Part shown: positions 9,290 through 22,969 of the stretch, piece by piece | Layout: every line of letters begins with the position of its first letter | Position numbering within the stretch: position 1 is the stretch's first letter | IMG/VR virus record: IMGVR_UViG_3300028840_004242 | Coordinates: 62,001-87,830 of that record | Origin: an uncultured virus (IMG/VR IMGVR_UViG_3300028840_004242) | Lineage: Duplodnaviria; Heunggongvirae; Uroviricota; Caudoviricetes | Reading direction: 5' to 3' (one strand) | DNA length: 25,830 nucleotides | The notes under the pieces: model-generated | Database searches by the model: none | The model's input: only the letters and a program-made list of their open reading frames with translations | Told to the model about the DNA's origin: nothing | Position numbers and translations under genes: made by a program

Positions 9290-9414
9290 GAAGCGTATCC
9301 CATGATGTTAGCGAACACGAAAAGGGCATAAAGTAAACCAATTAATCCAATTATGTCCTTAATCCACTCTGGAACCTCTTCCCATCTTTTTTGTATTCTT
9401 CGTATTGTTTTCAT
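9280..9414 (-). CDS. Small membrane protein (44 aa), probably leaderless
   Basis: Manual translation MKTIRRIQKRWEEVPEWIKDIIGLIGLLYALFVFANIMGYASWK; ATG at the predicted TSS. Confidence 0.55.
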   Translation of the reverse strand: MKTIRRIQKRWEEVPEWIKDIIGLIGLLYALFVFANIMGYASWK

Positions 9415-9420
9415 ATCTAT

Positions 9421-9449
9421 AGTATAGTATAAAAGGCCGGTGCTGTCAA
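9421..9449 (-). promoter_or_regulatory. sigma70-type promoter TTGACA-17-TATACT
   Basis: Near-consensus; TATCTTG family. Confidence 0.85.
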
Positions 9450-9463
9450 GATAAATTATAAAT

Positions 9464-9820
9464 TTAAATCATACCTTTAGTTGGACACTCATCTATATCT
9501 TCATCGTCGTGCTGTACAATAGCAATTGGAGTTATGTCGTAGTTTCCTTCTTCAGGGCTACTCAGTCCTTGCACTTCGAGAAACCTTTTCTGTGTTTCCT
9601 CATTGAGATCGTCAAAGTAAATTGGGAATTCTATCATTTTATTTTCCTCCTTTTCATATTTCCTTTTTGCTTCTTCCCATCCTTCTAAGAAATCTTCCAA
9701 ATGATGTTTATACCACCATGACTTTTTAGGGTAGTCGAAGAAATCTTCAGGATTAGTTTCTCCTGGCACAAATGCGTTACGTCCTTTTCTTCTGTATCTT
9801 CCTGGAGAGTGTGTGCCCAT
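9464..9820 (-). CDS. Hypothetical two-part protein with internal start at 9637
   Basis: GAGG RBS at the start; second GGAGG-N8-ATG in frame (MIEFPIYFDDL). Confidence 0.6.
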   Translation of the reverse strand: MGTHSPGRYRRKGRNAFVPGETNPEDFFDYPKKSWWYKHHLEDFLEGWEEAKRKYEKEENKMIEFPIYFDDLNEETQKRFLEVQGLSSPEEGNYDITPIAIVQHDDEDIDECPTKGMI

Positions 9821-9881
9821 TTTTCAATTCCTCACTATGAAAGGTATTAGTGCCAAAACAATGATCCAAAATATGATTATT

Positions 9882-10271
9882 TCATCCATTTTTCCTTTTC
9901 TCCCATTCTTTTAAGAAGTACTCGTCCTCTCCTTTAATCATTATTTTAATCCAATGGTCGACTTCTTCCAAGCAGTCATCGTACATTTGGTCTGACTCCA
10001 TGAGGGACTGGAGGAAATAATCATACTCGTTAGCTACTTTCTTCCAGTCACCATTGCTTTCTTTTATCAGCTTTGGTAGGTCATCAGGAGTACCTATTCC
10101 TCCTAAGAGCCCTAAGTTACCCATACCAAAATGCCAACCCGCTGCAATGGCTTCCTCTTTTGGTAACTTACCAAATGTTGTGCAATAAGAGCAGATACCA
10201 TATTTCTCCATATCTGTGCTGTCGTAGGGGTACAGTTTGCTCTTACATTTCGGACAATACTTCATCTTCAT
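9882..10271 (-). CDS. Hypothetical protein with N-terminal Zn ribbon
   Basis: CPKC...CSYC; acidic C-terminus. Confidence 0.65.
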   Translation of the reverse strand: MKMKYCPKCKSKLYPYDSTDMEKYGICSYCTTFGKLPKEEAIAAGWHFGMGNLGLLGGIGTPDDLPKLIKESNGDWKKVANEYDYFLQSLMESDQMYDDCLEEVDHWIKIMIKGEDEYFLKEWEKRKNG

Positions 10272-10387
10272 TTCCCTTCGTGGTTTTTATTTACTGCTTG
10301 TCATAGCATTAAAAGCAAAAGTTCATGCAGAATTCGTCAAATGAAAGCGTGGGATTTACGATTCTGTACGCTATTAAAACTGCAATT

Positions 10388-10600
10388 TCAGCGCAGACGA
10401 GTAATAATGTCACCAGTTTCAAAGTTCATAACCAGTTCATTACACTCACTGTTTTCTATCCATAAGCTGATGGTTTCAAATCTTTCTCCCGCCTTATCAA
10501 ATACTTTATAAAGAGTATCGGCTACGAGCTTTTCTCTGGTGAAACCATCTGCTCCCTTGAAACCTTCTATCTTTTCGTCCAATTTAATTACGATACGCAT
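10388..10600 (-). CDS. Hypothetical protein
   Basis: AGGAG RBS, MRIVIKLDEK start. Confidence 0.6.
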   Translation of the reverse strand: MRIVIKLDEKIEGFKGADGFTREKLVADTLYKVFDKAGERFETISLWIENSECNELVMNFETGDIITRLR

Positions 10601-10602
10601 TT

Positions 10603-10821
10603 CTATCTCCTTCCTACTTCCCACATCCTCTGTATTTCTCTCAGTATTTGGCGACCATAAGAGGAGGCAGAGAGTGGAGCCCTGTTTACCTCACTGATGA
10701 TAATTTTATCTTCAGCCCAGTCATCATCTAGGTCTTCAAAATCAAAGTCTACTGGGTAATCTTCTACAATTTCCCAAGTGTTTAGGACTTCGCCTTCATT
10801 GTCGGAGAGTGTGAGTCTCAT
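10603..10821 (-). CDS. Small highly acidic protein
   Basis: EDYPVDFDFEDLDDDWAED tract. Confidence 0.65.
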   Translation of the reverse strand: MRLTLSDNEGEVLNTWEIVEDYPVDFDFEDLDDDWAEDKIIISEVNRAPLSASSYGRQILREIQRMWEVGRR

Positions 10822-11020
10822 GGCATTTCCTTTCTACCGCTTTCTGGGTGGCTTCAAATATCTCCCTGTGTTCTTCTGGGGTCAAACAGTCACCGCATAT
10901 ACCTTGGTACTTTTCTCGTATATGTTGTGGTACACCCCAGATTGACCTATTTGTGGTTGCTAATACCTTACCGCAACCTCTTCTGCATTTAACTGTATAG
11001 ACTCTAATCTTTTTTGGCAT
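10796..11020 (-). CDS. Small Zn-finger-like protein
   Basis: CRRGCG...ICGDC; AAGGA RBS. Confidence 0.65.
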   Translation of the reverse strand: MPKKIRVYTVKCRRGCGKVLATTNRSIWGVPQHIREKYQGICGDCLTPEEHREIFEATQKAVERKCHETHTLRQ

Positions 11021-11042
11021 TTTGCTTTCCTTTTCTCAGGAT

Positions 11043-11100
11043 TTCTCAGCATCTTTTCTCACTACTACCTACAACAGCAGTGAGAAAAGAGGTTGAAGAA
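11043..11100 (-). other. Long intergenic RNA stem (processing site or terminator)
   Basis: TCTTTTCTCACTGCTG/TAGTAGTGAGAAAAGA, 16 bp with G-U pairs on the minus strand. Confidence 0.55.
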
Positions 11101-11102
11101 TC

Positions 11103-11315
11103 CTAAATGAGTCCTCCAAGTACCAGTACACTGTTTACCTTGCCACCTTCACATTCCCAGCAATCGTAGTTGCTGGCGTCAGGCTCCACGTCACGGATTG
11201 CGTGGCATTTGTCGCAGATTCCCACAGCGATACCGTCTACTGAGTCTTCCAGCATACCCATCACTGTGTCATAACCAGACGCTTCTTTTGCTAATACCAG
11301 TAAGTTTTCTCCCAT
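11103..11315 (-). CDS. Small Zn-ribbon protein
   Basis: GICDKC..VEPDASNYDCWECEG..VNSVLVLGGLI; AGGAG RBS. Confidence 0.7.
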   Translation of the reverse strand: MGENLLVLAKEASGYDTVMGMLEDSVDGIAVGICDKCHAIRDVEPDASNYDCWECEGGKVNSVLVLGGLI

Positions 11316-11328
11316 GACTCTAATCTCC

Positions 11329-11508
11329 TTAACTGTAAATTTTGCCGTACGATCTCATTATCCGCAATACCAGCACGTTGCACTCTGCAAAGCGGCACTC
11401 TGAAGCGAGTCTCTTAGCTGTTTCCCAACGGGGATCGTTTAAGTAGCGGTCTTCGTGAGATCTTGGACGGCGGGGTTTATATTGATGTTGCTCTTGGGCC
11501 TCTTCCAT
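11329..11508 (-). CDS. Hypothetical protein
   Basis: AGGAG RBS, MEEAQEQ start. Confidence 0.55.
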   Translation of the reverse strand: MEEAQEQHQYKPRRPRSHEDRYLNDPRWETAKRLASECRFAECNVLVLRIMRSYGKIYS

Positions 11509-11659
11509 TTCAGTCGCTCCTTTCCTTAGCAAAGGCTAAAGTGAAGAACCGAGATGATAGCTATAATTGCTACCATCAATCCAATGTAAATGTCCAATTT
11601 CATGAGCTATTTCCCTCTTCCTTAGTCATGTGCTCACCAATTTCTTAGCTTGCACATAT

Positions 11660-11688
11660 AATGTAGCATGTTTCCATTCGCCCTGCAA
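11660..11688 (-). promoter_or_regulatory. sigma70-type promoter TTGCAG-17-TACATT
   Basis: TATCTTG family, TG extended -10. Confidence 0.75.
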
Positions 11689-11697
11689 GATATTTTT

Positions 11698-12078
11698 TCA
11701 TACATACTCACGCACCTGATATGCTACGTTGGGACCAGCGTGATCGTTGTATTCATCACATTGGTCTTGTGCTTCCTGCTCGTCCTCAAAGATCATCACC
11801 TCACCATCACGCTTGCACCAGGACTCAGCAGGTCCCATATGGCTCAGGGAGGACCGCATGGCCCATATGCCCCACCTTCTGCTTCGCTTCTCCACCTTCT
11901 TCATCGCTTTCAGCACCATCATCAAGTACTCCTGCCTCATGTCCAGCCCAGTGTACTCTTCCACAATCTCCATCGCCTCAATCAGCTTATCCCGTTCTGC
12001 CACCGTCAAGCACCGTTCTATCGCCCTGTCCAAATCTCCACCAGTTTCTGCTTTATTATACTCGTCTTTGAAACTCAT
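11698..12078 (-). CDS. Hypothetical protein
   Basis: GGAGGTG RBS; AESWCKRDGEVMIFEDEQEAQ C-terminal domain. Confidence 0.65.
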   Translation of the reverse strand: MSFKDEYNKAETGGDLDRAIERCLTVAERDKLIEAMEIVEEYTGLDMRQEYLMMVLKAMKKVEKRSRRWGIWAMRSSLSHMGPAESWCKRDGEVMIFEDEQEAQDQCDEYNDHAGPNVAYQVREYV

Positions 12079-12156
12079 ATTCTTCACCTCCTTCCCAGTG
12101 CAGTAGCACTTACCACATAGCTTATGCCCTCTCCACATAAGCTATGTAATCATGAG

Positions 12157-12360
12157 CTATTGTACTTGCCATGGTTGCAGTACTAAGTCAAGTGGGTCAA
12201 CCTGCTCCATTAATGTGAAGCGCCCATAGCGTTTGTGGTATGAAACGCCACACTTTGGGCATCTCCAAAATGAACCGACACCAGGTGCACCAGCCTCACC
12301 TTCGTAGTCAAGCGTATCATTACCACACCTGCTACACCCTTCAAAGTCTTTGATACACAT
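12157..12360 (-). CDS. Small Zn-ribbon protein
   Basis: CSRCG...WRCPKCG; AGGAGGTG RBS. Confidence 0.65.
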   Translation of the reverse strand: MCIKDFEGCSRCGNDTLDYEGEAGAPGVGSFWRCPKCGVSYHKRYGRFTLMEQVDPLDLVLQPWQVQ

Positions 12361-12373
12361 TTTGCACCTCCTT

Positions 12374-12574
12374 TTAAAGTTCCTCATCAAATGCTATGTG
12401 CTCATCTAAATGCCCGCTGCTGTAGCATGGGTCAGCGGGGTTGAAGTCACCAGTCCGTGCTGTAATACACGCATCCGTACAGCACTCGTCAGTAGCCCGA
12501 AACCAGTGTATGTTTTTAGCGCATCCACTTAGTATCAGACCTGCTAAAATTAGCGCAAAGAGTTTCTTTTTCAT
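12374..12574 (-). CDS. Small lipoprotein
   Basis: MKKKLFALILAGLILSG|C signal peptide II lipobox. Confidence 0.7.
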   Translation of the reverse strand: MKKKLFALILAGLILSGCAKNIHWFRATDECCTDACITARTGDFNPADPCYSSGHLDEHIAFDEEL

Positions 12575-12846
12575 GGTAGCAACCCGTCGTATGTGATGTA
12601 CATGTTTGAGTTACGAAAATAGACAAGACCACGTGTTTCTTGGTCGTGGTCACATTCCCAGGGCGTTGCACAGCATCCTTCATCCGCTTTGAAGCATCCG
12701 TCGTCATATTCCCACAACAGTCTGTAATCGTCTACGACCTCTCCGCATTTCATTTCACCGTGTACCGCTTGCACCCAAACGCTGTCAACATCCACACGCT
12801 GTACCGTACCGTCTTGTTTTCTAATTGAAAACCGCATACTTTTCAC
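12571..12846 (-). CDS. Hypothetical Cys/Asp-rich protein
   Basis: GGGGAGG RBS directly after a promoter. Confidence 0.6.
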   Translation of the reverse strand: MKSMRFSIRKQDGTVQRVDVDSVWVQAVHGEMKCGEVVDDYRLLWEYDDGCFKADEGCCATPWECDHDQETRGLVYFRNSNMYITYDGLLP

Positions 12847-12875
12847 CTCCCCTCTTTTGCTGTTTTGTTTTCGCT

Positions 12876-12923
12876 TTTCATATTAATAATGTAATACATT
12901 TCATGTGGTTATACAAGATATTT
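12876..12923 (-). repeat. 48-bp exact direct repeat, copy 1 = promoter TTGTAT-17-TACATT
   Basis: Identical to 14196..14243. Confidence 0.9.
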
Positions 12924-12993
12924 TGTTTATATTTTAGCGGATAACTCTGCTTGCACCTCACCTCCCCAACACACATTAAACTGCGCTACCCGC

Positions 12994-13368
12994 CTAGTAC
13001 CGTATGCTTACACTCTTACCAGCAAAGCGACCTTCTAAAATGTAAACCCGTGCATGGTAATTGCGAAAGCACCCATACAGCATGTGCTCGTTCTCCGTGT
13101 AGTACCGCTGCACTATCCGTGCCTTAAAAGCCGCTACATGATCGTACCGCAGTTTCTTTTGCCAGCGACCATTCCTGCACCAAACTTCTATAATGTCACC
13201 GACTCTGTTACCCTTTGACCCAGTGCAGAAATACCTTTCTCGCTCCACTACTCTGTAGCCCGTGGGCATGCGTCTCATGAACCCATAGTCCTTAAACTCA
13301 CACGCTACCCTACATTTGTAGCTGTCGCCCAAAAGCTGCGGGCCTTTTTGTGGTAAATTGTTACTCAT
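12994..13368 (-). CDS. Hypothetical basic protein
   Basis: 124 aa, overlaps the upstream stop. Confidence 0.55.
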   Translation of the reverse strand: MSNNLPQKGPQLLGDSYKCRVACEFKDYGFMRRMPTGYRVVERERYFCTGSKGNRVGDIIEVWCRNGRWQKKLRYDHVAAFKARIVQRYYTENEHMLYGCFRNYHARVYILEGRFAGKSVSIRY

Positions 13369-13630
13369 CGACCAGTTCTCCTCTCACTTCTAAGTCAATA
13401 ATTAAACCCACCATTGCCACCATATCACACTCAATTCCAGTGTGCTCCAAGCAACTAACCAGTCCGTTTTCGTTGTCAATACTCAGTTTAAACCCATGTG
13501 TGTCGTTTCCATCATCTGCTACCCAACTCACCTCAACCCAGTCAGCAGTATAATCAATTCTAAATTGTCTATCCCCGTAGTCGCCAGAAACAAACTCATA
13601 ATAATCAGTTCTTTCTTTCACCCTCACCAC
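13361..13630 (-). CDS. Small acidic protein
   Basis: GGGAGG RBS, D/E-rich. Confidence 0.65.
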   Translation of the reverse strand: MVRVKERTDYYEFVSGDYGDRQFRIDYTADWVEVSWVADDGNDTHGFKLSIDNENGLVSCLEHTGIECDMVAMVGLIIDLEVRGELVDE

Positions 13631-13757
13631 CTCCCTTCTTGTTTTAATTTTCGCACGTTAAAACTGCAAATGGTTACTTAGTTTGCGCTTGCTTATTTCG
13701 CGGACATTGCATGATCTTTTCTTTCTAATGCACAAGCAAGCACAAAATAAACACCAC

Positions 13758-14162
13758 TTACGACAACACCGCCATCAGATCGTCATAGTCTTTAAACTCG
13801 TAATTGTCGCAACTGTATAAATCATGGTCCCTTTTCACCCAATCCAAATAGTTTTCACATGCTACCCAAACTTCGTTTCTGTCATAATCCAGATCGAAGC
13901 ACAACAAATCCCATTGCCCATTGTCTATAATGACCGCTTCGTGCTTGTCGTGGTGCATTACGAAAGAAACACGGTAAGGTGTAGTGCCCTCATACTCGCT
14001 GATGACCGCGGTACAATTACGACCGTCACCCTTAACAGTCCAAACTCTGTGCTCGTGACTCGTTTCAGGGTTGGGGTGCAGACCATGATTCTGTGCTGCT
14101 TTCCTATCCTCTTCAGCACTCGTCACCCTGCTCTTATAAATTTCTCGCTTCGCTTTTATCAT
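13758..14162 (-). CDS. Hypothetical protein, first gene of the early operon
   Basis: GGAGGTGA RBS after a promoter; acidic C-terminal half. Confidence 0.7.
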   Translation of the reverse strand: MIKAKREIYKSRVTSAEEDRKAAQNHGLHPNPETSHEHRVWTVKGDGRNCTAVISEYEGTTPYRVSFVMHHDKHEAVIIDNGQWDLLCFDLDYDRNEVWVACENYLDWVKRDHDLYSCDNYEFKDYDDLMAVLS

Positions 14163-14195
14163 CCCTACTCACCTCCCTTCTTTGTGTTTTCTTGC

Positions 14196-14243
14196 TTTCA
14201 TATTAATAATGTAATACATTTCATGTGGTTATACAAGATATTT
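14196..14243 (-). repeat. 48-bp exact direct repeat, copy 2 = promoter TTGTAT-17-TACATT
   Basis: Identical to 12876..12923. Confidence 0.9.
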
Positions 14244-14859
14244 CTTACACATACCCATAAAATTTATCACACCTATCCATTAAAAATTTCTAACAATTTC
14301 TCACTAATATTTTCTCACAAATTTCTCAGCAACCTAATCTTTTCTCACTAATCTTCTGACCACATCGACTCAACCACATCAGTAATCGTTCCACAAACCA
14401 TCCCACAACAAATAAGTACCACCAAAGGCCACCGTACCATATCAAACAAGCTAATTAATAAGTCCATCCCTATTCTTTCCTTTCCAATCCAAGTTAAAAG
14501 TTATACACTTCACATAGTACATAGTATAGCATAGTAAAAATGGAGAACAAGATAATACTCAGGTATATCCGTTTATAGCAGTAGCATCATGGGAAGGTGC
14601 GAATCGTGATAAGGATAGTATCTTTCCTTTAGTATCGCAGTAGTAGCTAAGAAACAAAGTAAATAAGGGTAGGTATAGCTTGATTGATTGTATCGAATCA
14701 TGGAGTGCATGGGGTGTGGCGACGAGCCCAGGTATGAGCAAGAGCAGATGTGAGTACGAAAGCATATAATCATCTACACCTATCCTGCCCACACAGTCTT
14801 AATCAATCATATCAACCCGCGCCTACCCTCTGATTGCATAGTTTAACGACTCACGCAGG

Positions 14860-15198
14860 TTTACGGGCAAGAGCAGAGCAGGGCGTGGGTGAGGAGCAGA
14901 GGCTTCGGGCTTCATGATTTAGATAGTATCAGACCAGACCACGCCTGCCCAGACCAGACCAGACCATGGGCTACGAATGGATTAGAATGGGACGATTGGG
15001 AGGCTGCGTGGGTGAGCGTGGATTAGATTGAATCACATCAGACCAGACCGCGCCAGACCAGACCGTGGGGGTAGGGGTGCAGGCTATGTGGGATCACGGG
15101 CGTATAGGGATCACGGTAGGTCATGGCTGGCGGAGGTATACGGGATGGCGGATATGGCGTGGTCTGGGGTGGAGGTCGGGCTTCATGGGTTGTATGGG
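14860..15198 (+). repeat. Non-coding G-rich block with AGACC pentamer arrays and G-tracts
   Basis: (AGACC)n clusters at about 14931-14965 and 15039-15064; GGGATCACGG x2; nine or more GGG runs. Confidence 0.75.
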
Positions 15199-15220
15199 TT
15201 TCAGTAAATATTGCATATTT

Positions 15221-15263
15221 ATTGCATGTAGTTTATTTATTTAATGAAGCATATTTAGTAAAT
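15221..15263 (+). repeat. Left arm of 43-bp inverted repeat
   Basis: 40/43 match to the reverse complement of 16780..16822. Confidence 0.85.
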
Positions 15264-15482
15264 TTGCTTCATTAAGTAAATAACACCGCTTCATCATTTT
15301 GCTTAAAAATAATACATGTATATGTAATTAATACATGTATTATTTTTATATACAGTTAGTTTAAAACTAAGTAAATAACTACACTATTAAAAAATAGTGT
15401 TGTTACAAGCAAAATAATTTCAGTTAGTAAATTAATTAATTTTGTCATGTTTTTAGCTTTCTTTTTTAGTTGTTTAAAATAT

Positions 15483-15500
15483 ACAGCTTGACTTGCTTGC
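15483..15500 (+). repeat. Left arm of 18-bp perfect inverted repeat
   Basis: ACAGCTTGACTTGCTTGC; partner at 16035..16052. Confidence 0.9.
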
Positions 15501-15510
15501 AAGTTATTGA

Positions 15511-15981
15511 CTACGCAAAAACTGAAATTATTTTGTCTGTTTCGTTGTCAATTTTAAATGTAGCTACGTTGTGTGTAGCTAGATCGTAAATTGTACCCGA
15601 AACCGCTTTCAAGTTATTTTTGTAGTCAGCAATTTCATGCTTTTCAGTCAATATGCTTGCAATTTCACGTTTCGTGAAATTGTTTTCTTTCAGCATGTCA
15701 ATAATAAGTTTTCTGCGTGACCTCTTATTATTACTTGCTTTCAGCGTATTGTCTGAAAGTTTGTAATTTCGTTTGACTTCAGTTTCTTTCTTTTCGCTGA
15801 AGTCAAACAGTTTAGCGTTGTCAGCGCTTACGTTGTCAACAAAGTCAGCTAAACTTGCTTTATGTTTTTTTAGCAAGTTAGTCAGCTTGTTTTTAGCTGT
15901 ACTTTTTTCGTTGTCAGTCGTTGCGCTGTCAACAAACATACTGTATAATTTACTTGCTTTGCTTTTTTCTTTACTTGTCAT
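15511..15981 (-). CDS. DUF2786-like N-terminal helical hairpin plus winged-helix-like protein
   Basis: KASKLYSM..SATTDNEKSTAKNKLTNLLKKH resembles DUF2786; SRRKLIIDMLKE..KAVSGTIYDL is paralogous to 7628..8086; has its own promoter. Confidence 0.75.
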   Translation of the reverse strand: MTSKEKSKASKLYSMFVDSATTDNEKSTAKNKLTNLLKKHKASLADFVDNVSADNAKLFDFSEKKETEVKRNYKLSDNTLKASNNKRSRRKLIIDMLKENNFTKREIASILTEKHEIADYKNNLKAVSGTIYDLATHNVATFKIDNETDKIISVFA

Positions 15982-16034
15982 AATGCACACTTCGCTTTTC
16001 TGCTATTATTTAAAATAGCTGTTAAAGAAATTAA

Positions 16035-16052
16035 GCAAGCAAGTCAAGCTGT
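16035..16052 (+). repeat. Right arm of 18-bp perfect inverted repeat
   Basis: GCAAGCAAGTCAAGCTGT. Confidence 0.9.
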
Positions 16053-16178
16053 CATTATAAGTAATACAATAAAGTATTGCAAATAAGTATAACGAAATTA
16101 ATATTTTAATTGCTTTTGACATAGTAATATTTTTTAGCGTCAAATAAGTTGTTAATTTTGTAGTTTGTAATACATAAA

Positions 16179-16207
16179 AGTCTATATACTTTTAAGTCTT
16201 TTGTCAA
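16179..16207 (-). promoter_or_regulatory. sigma70-type promoter TTGACA-17-TAGACT
   Basis: Enclosed by the 10-bp inverted repeat TACATAAAAG/CTTTTATGTA. Confidence 0.7.
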
Positions 16208-16393
16208 GTCTTTTATGTACTTTTTATTTTTTTGTTTCGCTGTCATGCTATTATATAAAGCAAGTTTCATGCACAATAGCATATATTTGCATATTTTTTT
16301 TAATTTATTTATAAGTACTTAATATCATTACAAATATAAATATAAATTTATTTCTTATATACTACATTGTAGTATATGCTATATACTGAAAAG

Positions 16394-16492
16394 TGACAAT
16401 TCACGTCACTTTTGACAATTTTTGTCAAAAAACGCTATAACATACTGTAATTATTAATAATATTACAATGTAGTATATGACAATTATTGTCA
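16394..16492. promoter_or_regulatory. Three TGACA-N5-YGTCA palindromic operators
   Basis: 16394..16408, 16413..16427 and 16478..16492; the second overlaps a plus-strand TTGACA-18-TATAAC. Confidence 0.65.
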
Positions 16493-16540
16493 ATATATAC
16501 TACAATGTATTACTGCTACAATGTAGCATTATATATACAC

Positions 16541-16644
16541 TATATTACTACATTACTATACTACTGTATTACTACATTACTATACTACTACATTACTATA
16601 CTACTGTATTACTACATTACTATACTACTACATAACTACATAAC
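16541..16644 (+). repeat. Octamer tandem array (13 x TRYAYWAC) with a 40-bp higher-order repeat
   Basis: Units TACATTAC, TATACTAC, TGTATTAC, TACATAAC; 16549..16588 equals 16589..16628. Confidence 0.9.
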
Positions 16645-16779
16645 TACAATAATATTTCTAAACAATATTTACTTATTATATATACATATAGTAAATATAT
16701 ATTAATACATTAATATAATACATAATAAATAAATGAAGCATATTTATTTATTATACATGCAATAACTAAGCCCCCACAC

Positions 16780-16822
16780 ATTTAATAAATATGCTTCATT
16801 AAATAAATAAATAACATGCAAT
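16780..16822 (+). repeat. Right arm of 43-bp inverted repeat
   Basis: Partner of 15221..15263. Confidence 0.85.
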
Positions 16823-17039
16823 ACAAACTACATTAATTGTAGTAAGCTACATTATTTGTAGTATGACAATTTACATTTTATTGCAACATTTATTAATTAC
16901 ATGCAACATGTGATAACTGAAGCCCCTTCAATAAACAAATGGGGTATACTTAATAAATGAGCATGGAGGCCCGACCATAAATTAGAATACCGAATTCACA
17001 CAACTTTAACGGAGGCCAATCCTGCATCGTATTTTCCAC

Positions 17040-17069
17040 TTGACACCACGCTCCGGGGTGTGCTATACA
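17040..17069 (+). promoter_or_regulatory. Promoter TTGACA-18-TATACA
   Basis: Shares GGTGTGYTATA with the promoter at 21313. Confidence 0.7.
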
Positions 17070-17079
17070 GCGAATTAAT

Positions 17080-17613
17080 ATGAACCTTCCCCAACTCATA
17101 AACCGCATACGCAATGGTGTGTATGAACTCATTAACACCCCTTCTAAGCAAACCGTGGTGCCCCAGGCCAAAGCAAAGATCAATCAAAACGTGCGCTTTG
17201 ACGACCACACCTTGCGAGAGCTCACCAGCAACGGAAAGCAAGTGTATATCGTGCAAGCAGCTCAAATCAACCTTCAACAGTCACTTACCAACGAAGGCAC
17301 CAAAGTGCTCACCTATATTGACCAACTACAAACCGCCTTAGAAGACCAAGCCCGTGACCAATCTCTATTCGAAATATTACTCCGTAAATATAATGAGGGA
17401 TGCACCTTGAAAACCATCCGCGACATCGTAGAGCGTTTATACATCGAGATTGCCCTTGCCAACACGCCTACGCAATCAGATGCCGCCCGTCGCCTTGGTA
17501 TTGCCCGCAGCGGCATATATGAGCGTCTAAAGCGCCTTACCTACGCCGAAGAGGCCGAACCAACCATGACAAAGGAGATCACCAAATGCGAGACACAGAA
17601 CTCTACCGACTGA
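17080..17613 (+). CDS. Fis/NtrC-type HTH (HTH_8) domain protein
   Basis: C-terminal VERLYIEIALANTPTQSDAARRLGIARSGIYERLKRL. Confidence 0.8.
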   Translation: MNLPQLINRIRNGVYELINTPSKQTVVPQAKAKINQNVRFDDHTLRELTSNGKQVYIVQAAQINLQQSLTNEGTKVLTYIDQLQTALEDQARDQSLFEILLRKYNEGCTLKTIRDIVERLYIEIALANTPTQSDAARRLGIARSGIYERLKRLTYAEEAEPTMTKEITKCETQNSTD

Positions 17614-18188
17614 CACCCACAAAGGGATACACTAAGGAAGGCCTACGCATGATCGCTATCGACGCGGTCAGAGACTGCGTAGGAGAGGACTGTCCTGTAT
17701 ACCAGAAATGTCCTTATAGCAAGAATGGAAAGTGCAGCGTGGAGACTGGGTATATCAGTGCCGTTATGGACAGCTACTATGATTTGATTAAGAAGGATAT
17801 GAACCAAGAACTACTCAACGCCTTCACCCTGCGCCTGCTGCCACTGTTCCATCAGCTTGTGCGCTTCCAGATATTCGCCTACAGCGTTCAGGAGGTGTGC
17901 TACGTCACCTCCCGAGGGTTGCTAAAGATGCACCCCGTATTTAAAGAGATAAGGGAAACCATCCGCTCCATTGAGGCTACGCAGAAGTCCATTGGGTTGG
18001 AAGGAGAGTATATACGTGCTCTTGGTAACCTTAAGCAGCCAGGCATACTGCCTAGAGACCGAGAGGATGCTGAAGAGGTGCCTGGAGGTGCTAATTGGCG
18101 TGAGCAGTGGAACAAAAAGTACTTTGATCAGAACTTAGGACTGCGTGAGCCTAATGAAAGACCCACATTGAGGAGGGCGGCGAAGTGA
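17586..18188 (+). CDS. terS: Probable terminase small subunit with Cys cluster
   Basis: GLLKMHPVFKEIRETIRSIEATQKSIGL resembles the P27-family TerS C-terminus; AAGGAG RBS; upstream of TerL. Confidence 0.6.
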   Translation: MRDTELYRLTPTKGYTKEGLRMIAIDAVRDCVGEDCPVYQKCPYSKNGKCSVETGYISAVMDSYYDLIKKDMNQELLNAFTLRLLPLFHQLVRFQIFAYSVQEVCYVTSRGLLKMHPVFKEIRETIRSIEATQKSIGLEGEYIRALGNLKQPGILPRDREDAEEVPGGANWREQWNKKYFDQNLGLREPNERPTLRRAAK

Positions 18189-18463
18189 TGGAGGTCAAGA
18201 AATGTGGATGCAAGGATTGGGAAGAGAACATAAACCTTATTAATGCACCATGGACATTGCCGTTAACCATAGTAGGGAAGTATGAAGGGAAAGAGTTTGA
18301 ATACTGTCCCTGGTGTGGAGGTAAGTTGTGGACTACTTATAAAGTAGAGTATGGTAATTGTAGTAGTCCAAAATGTACGTGTGGCACATCAGAGTTTAAG
18401 AAGTCTACTGTTGGGTGTCCAGTGCATGGCATTTACGAGTGGGGGTATAAGGAGAACTACTAA
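18185..18463 (+). CDS. Cys-rich Zn-finger protein
   Basis: CGC..W, EYCPWCGGKL, CTCG..CPVHG. Confidence 0.65.
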   Translation: MMEVKKCGCKDWEENINLINAPWTLPLTIVGKYEGKEFEYCPWCGGKLWTTYKVEYGNCSSPKCTCGTSEFKKSTVGCPVHGIYEWGYKENY

Positions 18464-18660
18464 TGCCACGCCGATCACATAATATAAAGCGCCGTATGGA
18501 GGGTAGGTGTATAGATTGTGGTGCTATGGCAGAGTATGGGAAGGTGAGATGTGAAAAATGCTTGGTGGAACAGAGGGTTAAAAAGAGGGCTAGCTATGAT
18601 GAAAAAAAGCGCATAGCAAAGCATACAAGCAATAGAAATCTTTTAAAATTCAACAGATGA
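18463..18660 (+). CDS. Small basic Zn-finger protein
   Basis: GRCIDCG...RCEKC; AAGGAG RBS. Confidence 0.6.
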   Translation: MPRRSHNIKRRMEGRCIDCGAMAEYGKVRCEKCLVEQRVKKRASYDEKKRIAKHTSNRNLLKFNR

Positions 18661-18675
18661 GAGGGGGTAAAAATT

Positions 18676-18864
18676 ATGGCTAACAATGATTTAAACGTCA
18701 AGTTGCAGGTGACAGAGGACAATATAGAGCACATGTTGAATGGATTGGAAGAGTACAGTGGACTAGAAGTTAAGGATATAGGATTGCTGAGAAATGAGAA
18801 GGGCAAGCTGAAGGCTATAATTGTAATGTGGAGAGGGAAAGGTGCAAAATCTAAAGAAGATTAA
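18676..18864 (+). CDS. Hypothetical protein
   Basis: GAGGGGG RBS. Confidence 0.55.
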   Translation: MANNDLNVKLQVTEDNIEHMLNGLEEYSGLEVKDIGLLRNEKGKLKAIIVMWRGKGAKSKED

Positions 18865-19405
18865 AAAATGGCTGATTAAGAACGTAGCCGACATCCGTCT
18901 CTATAAAGGTGGCGTTATACTCTTCGGCGACAGCCACTACCGTATGAAGGGGGAGGACGTGAGAGATATCCTGAACTCCTTGCAGAAGGGAGATGTGCTG
19001 TTGCGAAGGTATGATCATTATTTAGGAGGTATGCTAACACCTGGCTACTTCACCCATGCCGCTATTTATGTTGGGGATAACAGAGTGATTCACATGTTAG
19101 GTGAAGGTATATGTAGTGAGGACATCCTTACGTTCTGCCGCTGTGACCACGTTGCTGTGCTGAGGCATGTTGGTGCCCACTATCCTCGATACCAAGCTGT
19201 AAAGAAGGCATTCGCATTTCTGGAAAAACATGTACAGTATGATTACGAGTTTGAGAGTGAAGATGAAGAGTTTTACTGTACTGAGTTTGTATGGGAATGT
19301 TATGGCAGACCTCCCGATCTCTACTTTGATAAATATATACTGCCTGATGACTTCTTAGCTTCGGTTAGCATATTTGAATTGGTAATAAGGAGACCTTCTC
19401 CATGA
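18842..19405 (+). CDS. YiiX/YaeF-like permuted papain-like (NlpC/P60 superfamily) enzyme
   Basis: LQKGDVLL, GYFTHAAIYVGD, YDYEF..FYCTEFVW (His before Cys). Confidence 0.85.
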   Translation: MQNLKKIKKWLIKNVADIRLYKGGVILFGDSHYRMKGEDVRDILNSLQKGDVLLRRYDHYLGGMLTPGYFTHAAIYVGDNRVIHMLGEGICSEDILTFCRCDHVAVLRHVGAHYPRYQAVKKAFAFLEKHVQYDYEFESEDEEFYCTEFVWECYGRPPDLYFDKYILPDDFLASVSIFELVIRRPSP

Positions 19406-21276
19406 CAGTAAAAAGAGCGAGTAGAATCAAAGCAGCAGATCACGAAGTGGTAACATATCAGGATGGAGCCGAAGGGTGTATTCGCTTCTGTGAGGATCAT
19501 GTAAGGGTTCCTATTTTCATAGACAAAATGGAGTACTGGTGCCCCCTAAGTGATCTACCTGACACACCTAATCCCAAGACTAAGCGTTCCTACAAAGAGA
19601 TGTGGGAAAGGCAGAAGGATATATTAAGGGAATGTCTAGCGATGGATGAGGAAGGTTATTTCCTCTACAGGCAGATAGTGTTTTGTTGGATGAGAGGTGA
19701 AGGTAAATCACTAATAGTCTGCCTTATAATAATCTGGAAGTTTATGGCATTCTCCCGCCAGAAGATCATGCTAGGGGCTAATAGTAGAGACCAAGTTAAG
19801 TTCGTTCATTATGATATTATACGGGATATCATTCTCCACAGCCCATCGTTGTTAGCACTAATTGGTAAGAATAATATCCAAGAAAAAGAAATCAGATTGA
19901 AGGAAGACCCTGACGATCCTAAGAGTAAGGACATAGATTGTATCATCCGCAGCGTTGGTACCTTTACTGGTATACTTTCTAATATAACAGCCTACTCATT
20001 CAGTGAAATGTTTGATATGAAGAATCCAAGGTTCTATGTACAGCTAGATGGTAGTATTAGAAATATACCTAATGCGTTTGGCTTAATCGACTCAACCGTG
20101 TCAGATAAGACCCATGTACTCTATAATTTATATAAAGAATGGAAAGCAGGAAACCTGCGAAATGTCTACTTCAGCTATAGGTGCTCGAGAAGTGCAGATT
20201 CGGAAGATTATTGGAACCCTCTTATGGATGAGGATCAACTTAATGACTATAAAGTCAAATTTCCTTTTGGAGAGTTTGAGAGATATTTTCAGAACCTCTG
20301 GGAGGCTGGAACTGTACGGGTTTTTACAGATGAAATGATTGAGGAAATGGGTTACATCGGTGTAGATAATGGATTTTTAAATCATGATGAAATACAAACG
20401 GCTATTAGAAGAAAGTATGAGTTGATTGCTAGAGCGGAGGATACTGCTGGTAAAGGATTTAACGAAGGGGCGGCAGCTGATTGGGAAAGAGTAGCTCTTA
20501 TAGATAGTAAGTTTAGAAAGGTAGAGTCCCTTTTCACCCTTGAAGGTCCTTTTGTAGATAGTCCACCTTCGGTTTCTACGTTGCAGTTCCTTTCTGATAT
20601 TTTTGATACTGATTGGGCTTTACTTACTGGACTTGACATGGCAGATCCTACTGCTGTGCATGGACAAGCTCGCACCATTTTCTGTGCTGTGCTTAAGGGA
20701 CTGGCAGGAAGCCGCAGTAATCCTTTCCATGAAACTATTGAAATACCAGATATGAAGTATATCTACATATTGATATTCCTGACAAGTATTCAGAATCAAG
20801 ATATCAATATTGTTAAACGTCTAATGGACGAAATGGATACAGAATATGATGGAATTGATGCATTCTGCAGCGAGCGCTACGGGTCCTGGGATATGGTTCA
20901 GTGGTGCGAGGATCGAGATATTTTCTTCGAACCTATCTTTCCTAATTACGACCGACAACGGGAAGCATTTAAAGAGTTTTATAATGTTGCCCGTGAGGGT
21001 AGATTTAAATGCCCACCAATCCATGTGGTCGGAAGTAAACGGGTCGATGTTTTACGTGAAGAGCTGTCAGTCTTTGATCATGATCCCATTAAGCGATGGT
21101 TCGGAAGTCCAGAAAAGACTGAAAAGGGAGGAATACAGGACGATTCCGTGTATAGTGTGGGATGGTGTTTATACGGAGGTCGTATGCTCGGACCTGACTC
21201 TTTTAGAATCAGAAAGTCAATGACTAGCTTTGGAACATTCATTCAAGGCACAGGAATCGTAGGGGATTATACTTGA
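19402..21276 (+). CDS. terL: Terminase large subunit
   Basis: WERQKDIL, Walker A WMRGEGKS, coupling motif IDST, FERYFQNLW, nuclease TGLDMAD and QDDSVYS. Confidence 0.9.
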   Translation: MTVKRASRIKAADHEVVTYQDGAEGCIRFCEDHVRVPIFIDKMEYWCPLSDLPDTPNPKTKRSYKEMWERQKDILRECLAMDEEGYFLYRQIVFCWMRGEGKSLIVCLIIIWKFMAFSRQKIMLGANSRDQVKFVHYDIIRDIILHSPSLLALIGKNNIQEKEIRLKEDPDDPKSKDIDCIIRSVGTFTGILSNITAYSFSEMFDMKNPRFYVQLDGSIRNIPNAFGLIDSTVSDKTHVLYNLYKEWKAGNLRNVYFSYRCSRSADSEDYWNPLMDEDQLNDYKVKFPFGEFERYFQNLWEAGTVRVFTDEMIEEMGYIGVDNGFLNHDEIQTAIRRKYELIARAEDTAGKGFNEGAAADWERVALIDSKFRKVESLFTLEGPFVDSPPSVSTLQFLSDIFDTDWALLTGLDMADPTAVHGQARTIFCAVLKGLAGSRSNPFHETIEIPDMKYIYILIFLTSIQNQDINIVKRLMDEMDTEYDGIDAFCSERYGSWDMVQWCEDRDIFFEPIFPNYDRQREAFKEFYNVAREGRFKCPPIHVVGSKRVDVLREELSVFDHDPIKRWFGSPEKTEKGGIQDDSVYSVGWCLYGGRMLGPDSFRIRKSMTSFGTFIQGTGIVGDYT

Positions 21277-21312
21277 TTTTCCGCCTTTCTTTTTGGGAAA
21301 GCAAAAAATAGT

Positions 21313-21342
21313 TTGACAACCCGCCCCCAGGTGTGTTATATA
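21313..21342 (+). promoter_or_regulatory. Promoter TTGACA-18-TATATA
   Basis: Intergenic, upstream of the portal gene; A-tract upstream. Confidence 0.7.
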
Positions 21343-21376
21343 TTTGGCAATTTGTTCTCTTAATACCATCTTGTAG

Positions 21377-22969
21377 ATGAGGAATCAAAAAATGACAGTG
21401 GAGTTGAGTAGAGATGAGATAGCGGAGAGAATACAAGAAATTCCAGATGACGTTTTAAGGCACATCACCTTCAGTATGCCCTGGCAATCACTAGCTGAAG
21501 GGTACTCTGGAGCAACCGATGAAGATGGATTCCCTATCATTCCTGATGCAGGGAAAAAGGAAGATCCAACCGAAGTAAGGAAGCGACTACAGACGGTCTG
21601 CTTCCAGAAAGCTCATCAAAATCCCCACATTAATACTGCAATAAGAGGTCTAGCTGGCCGTGTTACTGGCATGGGCTTCGAGGTCTCTTCAGGAATACCT
21701 GAAATTCAGCAAGCCATTGACGAAATTTGGTATGATCCCCGCAACCGTCTTTATTATTTCCTTTATAAGTACTACGTGAGGCATTTGATAGAAGGTGAAC
21801 TATTCTTATGTCTTACTTTACACAAAGATGGCTTTGTAGAAGTAGATTTTGTGGATCCCTCTGTGGTTAGCAGCAGTGGAGGGGACGGAAGTGGAGTAAT
21901 CAATCATCCTACTAAGCCTACAATGCCTCTGATGTACAATATCCGCTACGATAGCAATAATATGCAACAGATACCCTCGATTTTCTGTGCTTACTACCCA
22001 GAACTGTTATCGTTAGCCGCAGAATCCGAGCTTTACGACCCAAAATTGCAATCGAATAGCAAATCTAGGGCTAGAACTTTCACTAAATTCAAGAGTTATA
22101 ATAAATTTATTGTAGTGCTTGAGAAAGGATTTGTTACGAAAAGAGCGATATCCTACCTAAGAACTACGCTTGAGTGGATAAATCACTACGAAAACCTTAA
22201 AAAGTATGAAATAGACCATAAAAAGTCATCTGGGGCTTATTTATGGATATTCAAAATAACTGAGCCAAAGAGTTTCAAACTTTGGCTATCTTTATCTGAT
22301 GATGACCGTCGTAAGACGGGTATCATGGCAAAAAAGACCCCAGGATCGTCATTGGTGCTTCCCCCTGGCATGGAGGTAGAGGTTAAGAATCCTGTACTTT
22401 CTAATATTAGGGAGCAGGATACGGATATTCTTGAAATGGTTGGGAGCGGACTCAACGAGCCCGAGGATATTCTCTCCTCCAAATCTCGGAGCCCTTATGC
22501 TAGTATAAGGGCTTCGAGAGGTCCAATGTCAGACCGTGTAAGTGATGAGGTTGTGCTGTTCGATCGCTGGTTTATTCATGACTTTTGGGGTTCCATATTC
22601 TACCTTAAATCCGTAGTTTCTGATTTCCCTTCTATATTTAAAGTAAAGGAAGCTGTGGGATTTAATGAAGATAAAAGTCCGATTGTGAAAAAGGTGGATA
22701 GGAAACCTCAAGAACTCATCAAAGTTTCCTATCCCATTAGCGAAGTAATAGACCTAGAGGGCCGTGCTAAAGCATTGTTAGGGGTTAAACATGGTCCTGT
22801 GAGTGAGCAACTAGGTATACCTAATGAAGAGGTAGCACGAAGGATGGGTGTGGGTAACTACCATAAAGCTAGATTGAAAAAGGCTACAGAGGATGAGATG
22901 TATCCCGAGCTTATTTACAATGTAGATGCTGAAGCTACCCAGGAAGACTTAGAAGGAGGAGGAGCATGA
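21377..22969 (+). CDS. Portal protein
   Basis: Follows TerL; NPHINTAIRGLAGRVTGMGF, IEGELFLCL, VDFVDPS, SLVLPPGME. Confidence 0.85.
   Translation: MRNQKMTVELSRDEIAERIQEIPDDVLRHITFSMPWQSLAEGYSGATDEDGFPIIPDAGKKEDPTEVRKRLQTVCFQKAHQNPHINTAIRGLAGRVTGMGFEVSSGIPEIQQAIDEIWYDPRNRLYYFLYKYYVRHLIEGELFLCLTLHKDGFVEVDFVDPSVVSSSGGDGSGVINHPTKPTMPLMYNIRYDSNNMQQIPSIFCAYYPELLSLAAESELYDPKLQSNSKSRARTFTKFKSYNKFIVVLEKGFVTKRAISYLRTTLEWINHYENLKKYEIDHKKSSGAYLWIFKITEPKSFKLWLSLSDDDRRKTGIMAKKTPGSSLVLPPGMEVEVKNPVLSNIREQDTDILEMVGSGLNEPEDILSSKSRSPYASIRASRGPMSDRVSDEVVLFDRWFIHDFWGSIFYLKSVVSDFPSIFKVKEAVGFNEDKSPIVKKVDRKPQELIKVSYPISEVIDLEGRAKALLGVKHGPVSEQLGIPNEEVARRMGVGNYHKARLKKATEDEMYPELIYNVDAEATQEDLEGGGA

What the first reader, a model, noticed from the sequence alone, without database searches (positions are those of the whole stretch)
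15199..16940. Motif-purged 1.7-kb island: candidate first-injected, defence-invisible pre-early module
Seen, by manual scan: no GG on the plus strand from 15199 to 16940. Up to 16770 there are only four CC sites, about three GAT/ATC and one GAG/CTC, whereas GAC/GTC, GC and CG are common, so AT-richness alone does not explain it. The boundary with the G-rich DNA at 15198 is abrupt. Established: GG/CC, GAT and GAG are frequent cores of restriction-modification, BREX and phosphorothioate target sites and of some CRISPR PAMs, and T5 and T7 keep their first-entering DNA poor in restriction sites. Inference: this is the leading end of the genome, stripped of whole short words to evade many systems at once, and it expresses one protective protein before the rest enters. 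An alternative is DNA that must stay free of a phage-encoded G/A modification.
Basis: partly seen in the sequence, partly recalled or inferred. Interest (0 to 1): 0.9.

Follow-up and report, generated by a model that had tools for sequence, protein, structure and literature searches.

The report
GG/CC-free control cassette beside packaging genes
An uncultured 88-kb phage and several distant relatives keep one small gene unit next to their DNA-packaging genes free of the DNA steps GG and CC, so its protein has almost no glycine, proline or tryptophan, which means that something not yet identified reads that two-letter step.

Summary
GG is absent from 15198 to 16941, against 23.9 expected under a composition-matched Markov model (0 of 20000 simulations). 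CC, GA and TC are also depleted. The cause is selection, not AT-richness. Sharply bounded GG/CC-free islands of 1.0-2.1 kb lie upstream of terL in 7 other contigs and one further genome (terL 44-52% identical, island GC 31-41%). They hold unrelated minus-strand genes with 0-1 Gly/Pro/Trp, and their codon choice avoids the word. Only GG/CC is shared. The GAG and GAT depletion is specific to this lineage, and one relative instead depletes GC.

The window's island holds one conserved winged-helix protein gene, repeats and palindromes. A G-rich block flanks it on the left and a C-rich block on the right. It lies between the early arm and the packaging arm. Contig depth there is 1.8x, a hint of a terminal repeat.

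My best reading (0.45) is a leading-end control cassette hidden from a reader of that word. The phage encodes a DpdA 7-deazaguanine system, so a modification-free stretch is a strong candidate. However, CAjan and one DpdA-bearing relative have no island.

Earlier unchecked notes of this scan report similar islands in at least 19 other genomes. My searches found no description in print.

The parts
12876..12923 (-). First copy of a 48-nt exact direct repeat (second copy at 14196-14243). It is promoter-like on the minus strand, and it explains a contig break.
   Evidence: exact repeat, two copies in the genome; contig ends there
14196..14243 (-). Second copy of the 48-nt repeat. It marks the left end of the 1.8x-depth contig.
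14214..16575 (.). Contig with k-mer depth 27.4/26.5, against 14.5/14.1 on its left and 15.7/15.2 on its right. Candidate collapsed terminal repeat; its limits are not resolved.
   Evidence: runs X1 and X2, which may be the source samples and may be one data set
14900..15198 (+). Left flank: CAGACC repeats, then a G-rich repeat block with up to 10 or more GG per 50 nt. It contains GGTCGGG at 15174.
15199..16940 (.). The GG-free island. Its core, 15199-16770, is also nearly CC-free.
15220..15266 (.). Left arm of a 47-nt inverted repeat, 91% complementary to 16777-16823.
   Evidence: I1
15233..15348 (.). AT-only hairpins downstream of the gene (25-nt arms at 15233-15283; perfect 18-nt arms at 15304-15348). 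Candidate end of the leftward transcription unit.
   Evidence: I3, I8. G+C-containing terminators stand at the same edge in relatives L049 and L055.
15514..15981 (-). Gene of a 156-aa basic protein (P0001 from its ATG) with 1 Gly, 0 Pro, 0 Trp. The C-terminal half is a predicted winged helix.
16054..16083 (-). Best sigma-70-like site upstream of the gene (TTGCAA, 17 nt, TATAAT). Two others lie at 16179-16207 and 16371-16399.
   Evidence: These are consensus matches only and are not enriched over shuffles.
16349..16513 (.). Field of TACTACAATGTAGTA-type palindromes and TTGACAA/TTGTCAA words. Candidate operators.
   Evidence: I4, I12, I16; D10, D14
16539..16648 (.). Tandem array (period 8/16/40). 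Two near-identical or related public contigs break here.
16777..16823 (.). Right arm of the 47-nt inverted repeat. With 16723-16748 it forms a local hairpin around a C5 run.
   Evidence: I1, I6
16941..17079 (+). Right flank: C-rich, with the conserved CCCGACCA(T/C)AA motif (16969-16980). CCCGACC is the only minus-strand copy of GGTCGGG in the genome. A TTGACA promoter-like site for the rightward operon follows.
17080..17610 (+). First rightward gene, a 177-aa protein with a Fis-type HTH.
   Evidence: PF02954, E 2.7e-07
17586..18185 (+). 200-aa protein conserved next to terL in all four other genomes compared. Small-terminase candidate by position only.
19402..21273 (+). Large terminase.

Best explanation
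The island is a self-contained control or early cassette. It holds a winged-helix DNA-binding protein gene read leftward, its upstream field of repeats and palindromes, and hairpins at its downstream edge. It lies at the junction of the leftward early/replication arm and the rightward packaging/structural arm.

I propose that it lies at, or inside, the terminal repeat of the packaged chromosome. It would then be the first phage DNA exposed in the cell, as in the first-step-transfer DNA of T5 or the leading end of T7.

Selection keeps it free of GG/CC, and in this lineage also of GAG/CTC and GAT/ATC. I infer that a factor reading these words on DNA would otherwise act on it before the rest of the genome is in place or protected.

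Shown:
- the ban, its sharp limits, and that it overrides protein composition and codon choice;
- its recurrence at the same map position around unrelated genes;
- the winged-helix fold;
- the 1.8x depth.

Inferred:
- the terminal position and first entry;

My first candidate is the phage's own 7-deazaguanine writer (DpdA). A motif-free stretch stays unmodified, so it would be invisible to modification-dependent nucleases and glycosylases and readable by host proteins. My second candidate is a host reader of GG/CC, such as a CRISPR PAM or a nuclease.
For: - The ban is real.
- Of the 80 terL loci, 23 hold more than 3 kb upstream of terL, and 6 of these 23 show an island (one, L006, is the same phage). 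L025, L049 and genome G004 show it too.
- In relatives GG is 0-3 against 27-73 expected and CC is 3-26 against 37-79 expected. Limits are abrupt, with a G-rich block on the left and a C-rich block on the right.
- Each of three whole genomes has exactly one island.
- The island genes belong to at least three families that are unrelated by BLASTP and by profile comparison. All lie on the strand opposite to terL.
- The 12 island ORFs tested have 0-1 Gly/Pro/Trp, against a genome mean of 12.5% of residues. Synonymous shuffles expect 5-22 GG+CC where 0-4 are seen.
- Natural control: in the L051-type family, 10 of 14 members have at most 2 Gly/Pro/Trp, but 4 of 14 have 10-16. The fold therefore does not demand the ban.
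- P0001 is conserved: 17 homologues at 58-78% identity, with 0 Pro and 0 Trp in 19 of 19 rows.
- The island lies next to the terS-like/terL genes in all island-bearing genomes.
- Minus-strand terminators stand at the terL-distal edge in 2 of 3 relatives scanned.
- Depth is 1.8x over 14214-16575 with no alternative flank in the graph.
- DpdA-like, FolE and QueE-like genes are present. DpdA is present in 3 of 3 island-bearing whole genomes.
- Defences aimed at 7-deazaguanine DNA exist in print.
- A relative depletes a different word, GC, at the same place.
Against: - Termini were not mapped. The depth figure comes from contigs of two runs that may be the source sample and may be one data set. 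A contig further left has only 9.0, so depth is uneven for unknown reasons.
- Contig breaks inside the island are explained by its tandem array.
- Sigma-70-like sites in the island are not enriched over shuffles.
- No DnaA boxes lie near the island, unlike the T5 injection stop signal.
- The protein looks like a regulator, not a known anti-defence protein.
- Most evaluable relatives, 17 of 23, have no island.
CAjan, whose DpdA motif is known (GA and GGC), has no motif-free zone (lowest GA/TC observed/expected 0.48). GAC and GAA are tolerated here while GAT and GAG are not, unlike a plain GA motif.
- A ban on both GG and CC in one strand is automatically symmetric, so an RNA-level reader is not excluded.
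Confidence: 0.45

Rival explanations
1. A modification-free zone that has nothing to do with entry order. The phage's DpdA would write 7-deazaguanine in GG (here also GAK) contexts. The control region would have to stay unmodified on both strands so that host RNA polymerase, the winged-helix regulator, the terminase or a replication initiator can read G in the major groove.
For: - DpdA-like, FolE and QueE-like genes are present.
- G in the island is followed by T or C in 173 of 195 cases. These are the contexts CAjan DpdA leaves unmodified.
- DpdA is present in 3 of 3 island-bearing genomes.
- The island is dense in repeats and palindromes and encodes a DNA-binding protein.
- The banned word differs between relatives.
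Against: - Protein binding does not explain why whole coding sequences obey the ban.
- G002 and CAjan carry DpdA without any island.
- GAC and GAA are tolerated.
- The modification and its motif are unknown here.
Confidence: 0.2
2. An RNA-level constraint. The leftward transcript would have to contain neither GG nor CC, which makes the DNA ban symmetric by itself. Possible reasons are avoiding Shine-Dalgarno-like and anti-Shine-Dalgarno-like runs, avoiding stable G:C stacks, or avoiding an RNA-binding protein or RNase.
For: - There is no GG-containing ribosome-binding site before the gene.
- In this lineage the further depleted words GAG, GAT and GTG are sub-words of the extended Shine-Dalgarno complement, a sequence I recalled.
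- In L049 and L055 the ban ends within about 20-65 nt of a strong minus-strand terminator.
- In L049 and L051 a promoter-like site lies near the other edge.
Against: - In the window, about 540 nt of the island (16400-16940) lie upstream of every promoter-like site found.
- TGA/TCA, also part of that complement, is enriched.
- Relatives ban only GG/CC.
- No known RNA reader of both GG and CC comes to mind (recalled).
Confidence: 0.12
3. A replication origin with its initiator. The winged-helix protein would bind the iteron-like repeats, and the extra depth would reflect local over-replication.
For: - Both island protein families model as winged helices. The L051-type protein is nearest to ORC/Cdc6 winged-helix domains (Z 7.3 and 7.0).
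- The island holds a tandem array and palindromes.
- Depth peaks here.
Against: - The Z-scores are in the range of common arrangements.
- The depth change is step-like over about 2 kb rather than a gradient.
- An origin gives no reason for a dinucleotide ban across coding sequence.
Confidence: 0.08
4. A foreign AT-rich insert, such as a mobile element with inverted ends, or the footprint of a context-specific mutator such as a CC/TC-specific deaminase. In either case there would be no present selection for the ban.
For: - A 47-nt inverted repeat lies near both edges.
- Island GC is 25% against 41% for the genome.
- YC steps are depleted on both strands.
Against: - The island holds no transposase.
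- There is a single genomic context in the assembly graph.
- The same ban holds at 31-41% GC around unrelated genes at the same map position.
- P0001 is conserved, with the ban kept through 58-78% identity.
- Codon choice actively avoids the words.
Confidence: 0.04

Closest known systems
First-step-transfer (pre-early) DNA in the terminal repeat of phage T5/BF23
   Same: A short stretch at the chromosome end with its own early genes, followed by a large untranslated field of repeats, inverted repeats and palindromes (abstract of bioRxiv 10.1101/866236; search listing of PMC10644984).
   Different: - Here the avoided item is a dinucleotide, enforced even on protein composition.
- No DnaA boxes lie nearby.
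- P0001 matches no PHROG or Pfam family at the thresholds used, so I saw no A1, A2 or dmp likeness.
- The repeat would be about 2-2.7 kb, not about 10 kb.
- Two-step entry is untested.
Leading end of T7-like phages (strong host promoters reading inward, first gene an anti-restriction protein). Recalled, not from a call.
   Same: The cassette lies at the presumed entering end and is read toward the genome interior. The early genes beyond it run in the same direction.
   Different: The first protein is a winged-helix DNA binder rather than a DNA mimic. Promoters are not demonstrated. Termini are unmapped.
Motif-specific 7-deazaguanine DNA modification by phage DpdA (CAjan: GA and GGC, PMC7544227; iggy: GA, PMC10484667)
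   Same: The phage encodes a DpdA-like enzyme with FolE and a QueE-like enzyme. The banned or depleted words all begin with G followed by a purine on one strand or the other, as in the known motifs (passages; abstract).
   Different: No published DpdA phage is reported to keep a motif-free zone, and CAjan has none. GAC and GAA are tolerated here. The modification was not measured.
Restriction-site and PAM avoidance in phage genomes. Recalled; the idea that first-injected DNA ends are hot spots of spacer capture is also recalled, and I did not open that paper.
   Same: Short words are removed by selection from DNA exposed to host nucleases. GG/CC is the core of several CRISPR PAMs.
   Different: Known avoidance is genome-wide and statistical. 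Here it is absolute, confined to 1-2 kb with sharp limits, and it costs three amino acids.

Membership tests
T5-type first-step-transfer region | Lies inside a long direct terminal repeat | tested here: inconclusive
   Contig depth is 1.8x over 14214-16575 with no alternative flank. There were no raw reads, so no termini.
T5-type first-step-transfer region | Injection stop signal with a conserved set of DnaA boxes | tested here: not met
   None of the 4 window matches to TTWTNCACA lie within 14000-17300. The consensus was recalled. A G-rich repeat block stands there instead.
T5-type first-step-transfer region | Pre-early genes A1, A2, dmp | tested here: inconclusive
   P0001 has no PHROG hit at E<=1e-4 and only weak sub-threshold Pfam hits. 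I made no direct comparison with T5 proteins.
T5-type first-step-transfer region | Two-step DNA entry | not testable with these tools
   Needs infection experiments.
Phage 7-deazaguanine (DpdA) modification system | DpdA/TGT-like transglycosylase gene | tested here: met
   phrog_887, E 8.2e-37, for genome 54492-55679. Homologues occur in G001, G002 and G004. There is no Pfam hit at E<=0.001.
Phage 7-deazaguanine (DpdA) modification system | preQ0 pathway genes (FolE, QueD, QueE, QueC) | tested here: inconclusive
   FolE matches PF01227 at E 3.3e-42. A QueE-like radical SAM protein matches phrog_2076 at E 1.7e-32. QueC and QueD were not recognised.
Phage 7-deazaguanine (DpdA) modification system | Modified G in virion DNA at a defined motif | not testable with these tools
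   Needs LC-MS or nanopore data on virion DNA.
Winged-helix DNA-binding regulators (P0001) | Helix-turn-helix plus beta wing fold | tested here: met
   The AF2 model has pLDDT 88.3. Residues 91-159 align to MecI (Z 6.4, rmsd 2.8, 63 aligned) and to PadR, ArgR and MarR types. The Z-scores are middling, and DNA binding is untested.
Transposon or insertion sequence | Terminal inverted repeats | tested here: met
   47-nt arms, 91% complementary, at 15220-15266 and 16777-16823.
Transposon or insertion sequence | Transposase gene and copies in other contexts | tested here: not met
   No transposase family matched. There is a single context in the assembly graph and in the genome. The map position is conserved in relatives.

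The most novel reading that the evidence does not exclude
Tailed phages of quite different kinds keep a small leader cassette at the packaging end of the chromosome written without one two-letter DNA step. The step is set by a lineage-specific reader, most simply the context of the phage's own base modification. On that view the cassette is the one unmodified, defence-blind and host-readable part of the incoming genome.

In this clade the word switches between relatives: GG/CC in most, GG/CC plus GAK/MTC in this phage, and GC in L046. The same protein family exists in banned and unbanned forms.
Probability: 0.3. Interest if true: 0.9.

Novelty: new variant of a known kind. Interest (0 to 1): 0.75.

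Why it matters
A ban on a single dinucleotide that is strong enough to remove three amino acids from real, conserved proteins is a very loud signal. It says that something reads GG/CC on this stretch of DNA (or on its RNA) and nowhere else in the genome.

In practice the island is a sequence-only marker for the probable packaging end and immediate-early unit in uncultured phages. It also makes a prediction for any DpdA phage of this clade: the modification motif should equal the banned word. That can be tested directly by nanopore or LC-MS on virion DNA.

Tried and rejected
- **GenBank phages.** No similar DNA or terL was found in 50,697 records (blastn distant on 15000-17100; megablast on 17000-25830; tblastn with terL). 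The clade therefore has no cultured reference there.
- **Searches with island proteins.** The search for related loci with P0001, the L051 protein or alignment A1 returned only the same phage. Alignment A5 returned nothing. I could therefore not inspect the DNA contexts of the 17 P0001 homologues or of the 4 unbanned family members. The tool that would fetch them is closed.
- **RNA genes.** Rfam gave no credible family (one hit at E 0.71). No tRNA was found.
- **Fold search.** Foldseek against PDB with the P0001 model gave nothing at E<=0.001.
- **Gene shared only by island-bearing genomes.** I found none (tblastn of 119 ORFs against 4 genomes).
- **Other forbidden words.** None beyond GG/CC is shared by the 9 islands. 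CTAG is at 0.35, GATC at 0.56 and GTAC at 0.57, which are mild.
- **E. coli Chi.** Not enriched: 15 matches with up to 1 mismatch against 12.7 expected. The inverted GGTCGGG pair at the edges could arise by chance in a post-hoc search of two flanks.
- **Mobile-element reading.** Rejected (see rivals).
- **Two-strain explanation of the depth.** Not favoured, because no parallel variant contigs were laid. It is not excluded.
- **Runs X3 and X4.** They hold too little of the stretch to say anything.
- **G005/L046.** No modification gene turned up in the 27 ORFs scanned from its first 20 kb. The record is a fragment.
- **Earlier notes of this scan.** None on this genome or on look-alike stretches.
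- **Literature.** Two searches for a printed description of such islands found none.
Full report
**Setting.** The window is the last 25.8 kb of an 87,830-nt contig whose ends overlap by 144 nt, that is, a circular assembly. The contig is a tailed phage.
- Major head protein, tape measure and other structural genes lie on the + strand.
- A clamp loader, family-B-type DNA polymerase, processivity factor, recombinase, helicases and primase lie on the - strand.
- There is also a 7-deazaguanine gene set: a DpdA/TGT-like protein (phrog_887, E 8e-37), FolE (PF01227, E 3e-42) and a QueE-like radical SAM enzyme.
- In the window, all genes from 1 to 14,792 read leftward. These are DnaB-like, primase and helicase genes, then about 25 small ORFs without family. 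From 17,080 all genes read rightward: an HTH protein, a conserved 200-aa protein, terL, a 530-aa ORF at the place where a portal gene would be expected (by position only; no family hit) and a protease.
- The finding lies exactly between the two arms.
- terL has no tblastn match in 50,697 GenBank phage records.

- GG is absent from 15198 to 16941, the longest GG-free run of the genome.
- A first-order Markov model with the genome's dinucleotide odds ratios, fitted to the island's own base composition, expects 23.9 GG. None of 20000 simulations has fewer than 7.
- CC (12 against 35.5), GA (22 against 68.7) and TC (62 against 101) are also low.
- At the trinucleotide level GAG/CTC (1 against 10.7) and GAT/ATC (4 against 24.4) are low, while GAC/GTC is enriched 2.7-fold.
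- The other long GG-free runs of the genome are Ser/Thr/Tyr repeat tracts of two giant ORFs. They are CC-rich and unrelated to this feature.

**Anatomy.**
- One real gene, 15,981 to 15,514 on the minus strand, encodes a 156-aa basic protein.
- Downstream of it lie AT-only hairpins at 15,233-15,348.
- Upstream lie about 950 nt of non-coding DNA with sigma-70-like sites (the best is TTGCAA-17-TATAAT at 16,083-16,054), TACTACAATGTAGTA-type palindromes, a tandem array at 16,539-16,648 and a hairpin around a C5 run.
- A 47-nt inverted repeat (91% complementary) lies near both edges.
- The left flank (14,900-15,198) is a block of CAGACC repeats and G-rich repeats.
- The right flank is C-rich. It carries a conserved CCCGACCA(T/C)AA motif and then a TTGACA promoter-like site for the rightward operon.

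**The protein is real and conserved.**
- There are 17 homologues at 58-78% identity, nearly all on very short contigs.
- None of the 19 rows has Pro or Trp, and 16 of 19 have exactly one Gly, in a conserved SGT.
- The AF2 model (pLDDT 88.3) has a helical hairpin followed by a C-terminal winged helix. It is nearest to MecI (Z 6.4) and to PadR, ArgR and MarR-type regulators. These Z-scores are middling, so I claim the fold and not the function.

**Selection, not composition.**
- I fetched 80 loci around terL relatives. Of these, 23 hold more than 3 kb upstream of terL, and 6 of the 23 show a zone free of both GG and CC. One of the six, L006, is the same phage. L025, L049 and genome G004 also show it, and contig-end fragments are seen in L008, L056 and possibly L026.
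- These relatives share only 44-52% terL identity. Their islands have 31-41% GC. GG is 0-3 against 27-73 expected, and CC is 3-26 against 37-79 expected.
- Maps at 50-nt resolution show abrupt limits, with a G-rich block on the terL-distal side and a C-rich block on the terL side.
- In three whole genomes there is exactly one such zone (observed/expected 0.00-0.04 against about 1.0-1.1 genome-wide). Two other genomes have none.
- The genes inside differ. There are at least three families without BLASTP or profile likeness. All read away from terL.
- The 12 ORFs tested have 0-1 Gly/Pro/Trp in total, against 12.5% of residues in the genome. With the protein held fixed, synonymous shuffles expect 5-22 GG+CC where 0-4 are seen.
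- A profile search of the L051-type family gives a natural control. 10 of 14 members have at most 2 Gly/Pro/Trp, and 4 of 14 have 10-16. The ban is therefore imposed on the DNA of some lineages and is not a property of the fold.
- That family also models as a winged helix followed by a long basic helix (ORC/Cdc6 winged-helix domains, Z 7.3 and 7.0).

**Which words.**
- Pooling 9 islands, no word other than GG/CC is commonly forbidden.
It is enforced by codon choice. Asp is GAC 11 to GAT 1 and Glu is GAA 10 to GAG 0, against 272:499 and 553:376 in 22 long genes of the genome.
- One relative, L046, has at the same map position a 2.3-kb zone poor in GC instead (24 against 109).
It is not a universal physical property of DNA.

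**Position and ends.**
- The island abuts the conserved terS-like/terL module in every island-bearing genome. This is where cos or pac sites usually lie (textbook knowledge).
- Minus-strand terminators stand within about 20-65 nt of the terL-distal edge in L049 and L055. None was found at that edge in L051.
- Only Logan contigs were available for reads. In two runs, which may be the source and may be one data set, the contig 14,214-16,575 has depth 27.4/26.5. Its left neighbour has 14.5/14.1 and its 26-kb right neighbour has 15.7/15.2.
- The contig breaks are explained by a 48-nt exact repeat and by the tandem array. No alternative flank appears, so the extra depth does not come from a second context.
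- This is what a collapsed terminal repeat would give. However, a contig further left has only 9.0, so depth is uneven and I treat this as a hint.
- Many relatives' contigs end in or near the island. For L005 and L008 the break is the tandem array.

**What reads the word.** I could not identify it.

For the phage's own modification:
- DpdA is present in 3 of 3 island-bearing whole genomes.
- The banned words start with G followed by a purine, like the two known DpdA motif sets. CAjan's motifs are GA and GGC, while GT and GC contexts are cut by restriction enzymes and so are unmodified. For iggy the motif is GA (abstract).
- Defences that attack 7-deazaguanine DNA exist. These are Dag glycosylases (passages of bioRxiv 10.1101/2025.10.29.685425) and GrwAB, which is escaped by DpdA mutations (passages of PMC12137116). 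They give a reason to keep the first-exposed DNA unmodified.

Against it:
- G002 has DpdA but no island.
- CAjan has no motif-free zone: lowest GA/TC observed/expected 0.48 in 600-nt windows.
- GAC and GAA are tolerated here.

A host reader (a GG/CC PAM or a nuclease) and an RNA-level reader remain open. A ban on both GG and CC in one strand is symmetric by itself.

**Earlier notes of this scan.** These are AI notes and mostly unchecked. They report GG/CC-free cassettes in at least 19 other genomes, several next to packaging genes and some tied to DpdA.
- I tested two of their claims here. The link with DpdA holds only in part. A relative with another word at the same place does exist.
- Two literature searches found no printed description.

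**Verdict.** This is a real, selection-maintained, sharply bounded GG/CC-free control cassette beside the packaging genes, probably at the chromosome end.

Noticed in passing
L002:14552-19507 (genome 32552-37507) and L001:16079-19249: Two giant + strand ORFs (1651 and 1056 aa) carry hundreds of residues of STSTSTY-type Ser/Thr/Tyr repeats between globular ends. They produce the genome's other long GG-free runs.
   Followed up: partly
genome 54492-61100 (L003:18495-19679, L004:1942-7100): A 7-deazaguanine gene cluster: a DpdA/TGT-like protein, FolE, a QueE-like enzyme, a second 447-aa radical SAM protein and several ORFs without family. QueC and QueD were not recognised.
   Followed up: partly
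window 12876-12923 and 14196-14243: A 48-nt exact direct repeat in the early arm. It is promoter-like on the minus strand, and it is the cause of a contig break and of an apparent 'goes back' joint in the laid contigs.
   Followed up: yes
L046:5150-7450 (record G005): A terL relative (48% identity) has, upstream of terL, a 2.3-kb zone poor in the dinucleotide GC (24 against 109 expected) and rich in GA. It contains a 425-aa + strand ORF with only 9 Ala. The same record holds an integrase, a DnaN-like clamp and a ParB-N protein.
   Followed up: partly
window 15174-15180 and 16970-16976: GGTCGGG occurs once on each strand in the whole 87.8-kb genome. The two copies bracket the island as an inverted pair. 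CCCGACCA recurs at the same edge in L051 and L055. Significance is uncertain because the search was post hoc.
   Followed up: partly
window ~8200-12900: The contig covering this part of the early arm has depth 9.0/8.6 in runs X1/X2, against about 15 for its neighbours. This is unexplained; it could be strain variation or a deletion variant.
   Followed up: no
L049:365-396 and 1088-1117; L055:8093-8135: The terminator hairpins inside the relatives' islands are built from alternating GC/CG steps (GCTGCGCAGC, AGAGCGCTAG). Strong stems are thus made without GG or CC.
   Followed up: no
window 6482-7345 (-) and 18842-19402 (+): A DUF932 protein sits in the early arm. A permuted papain-like amidase (PF05708) sits just before terL.
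   Followed up: no
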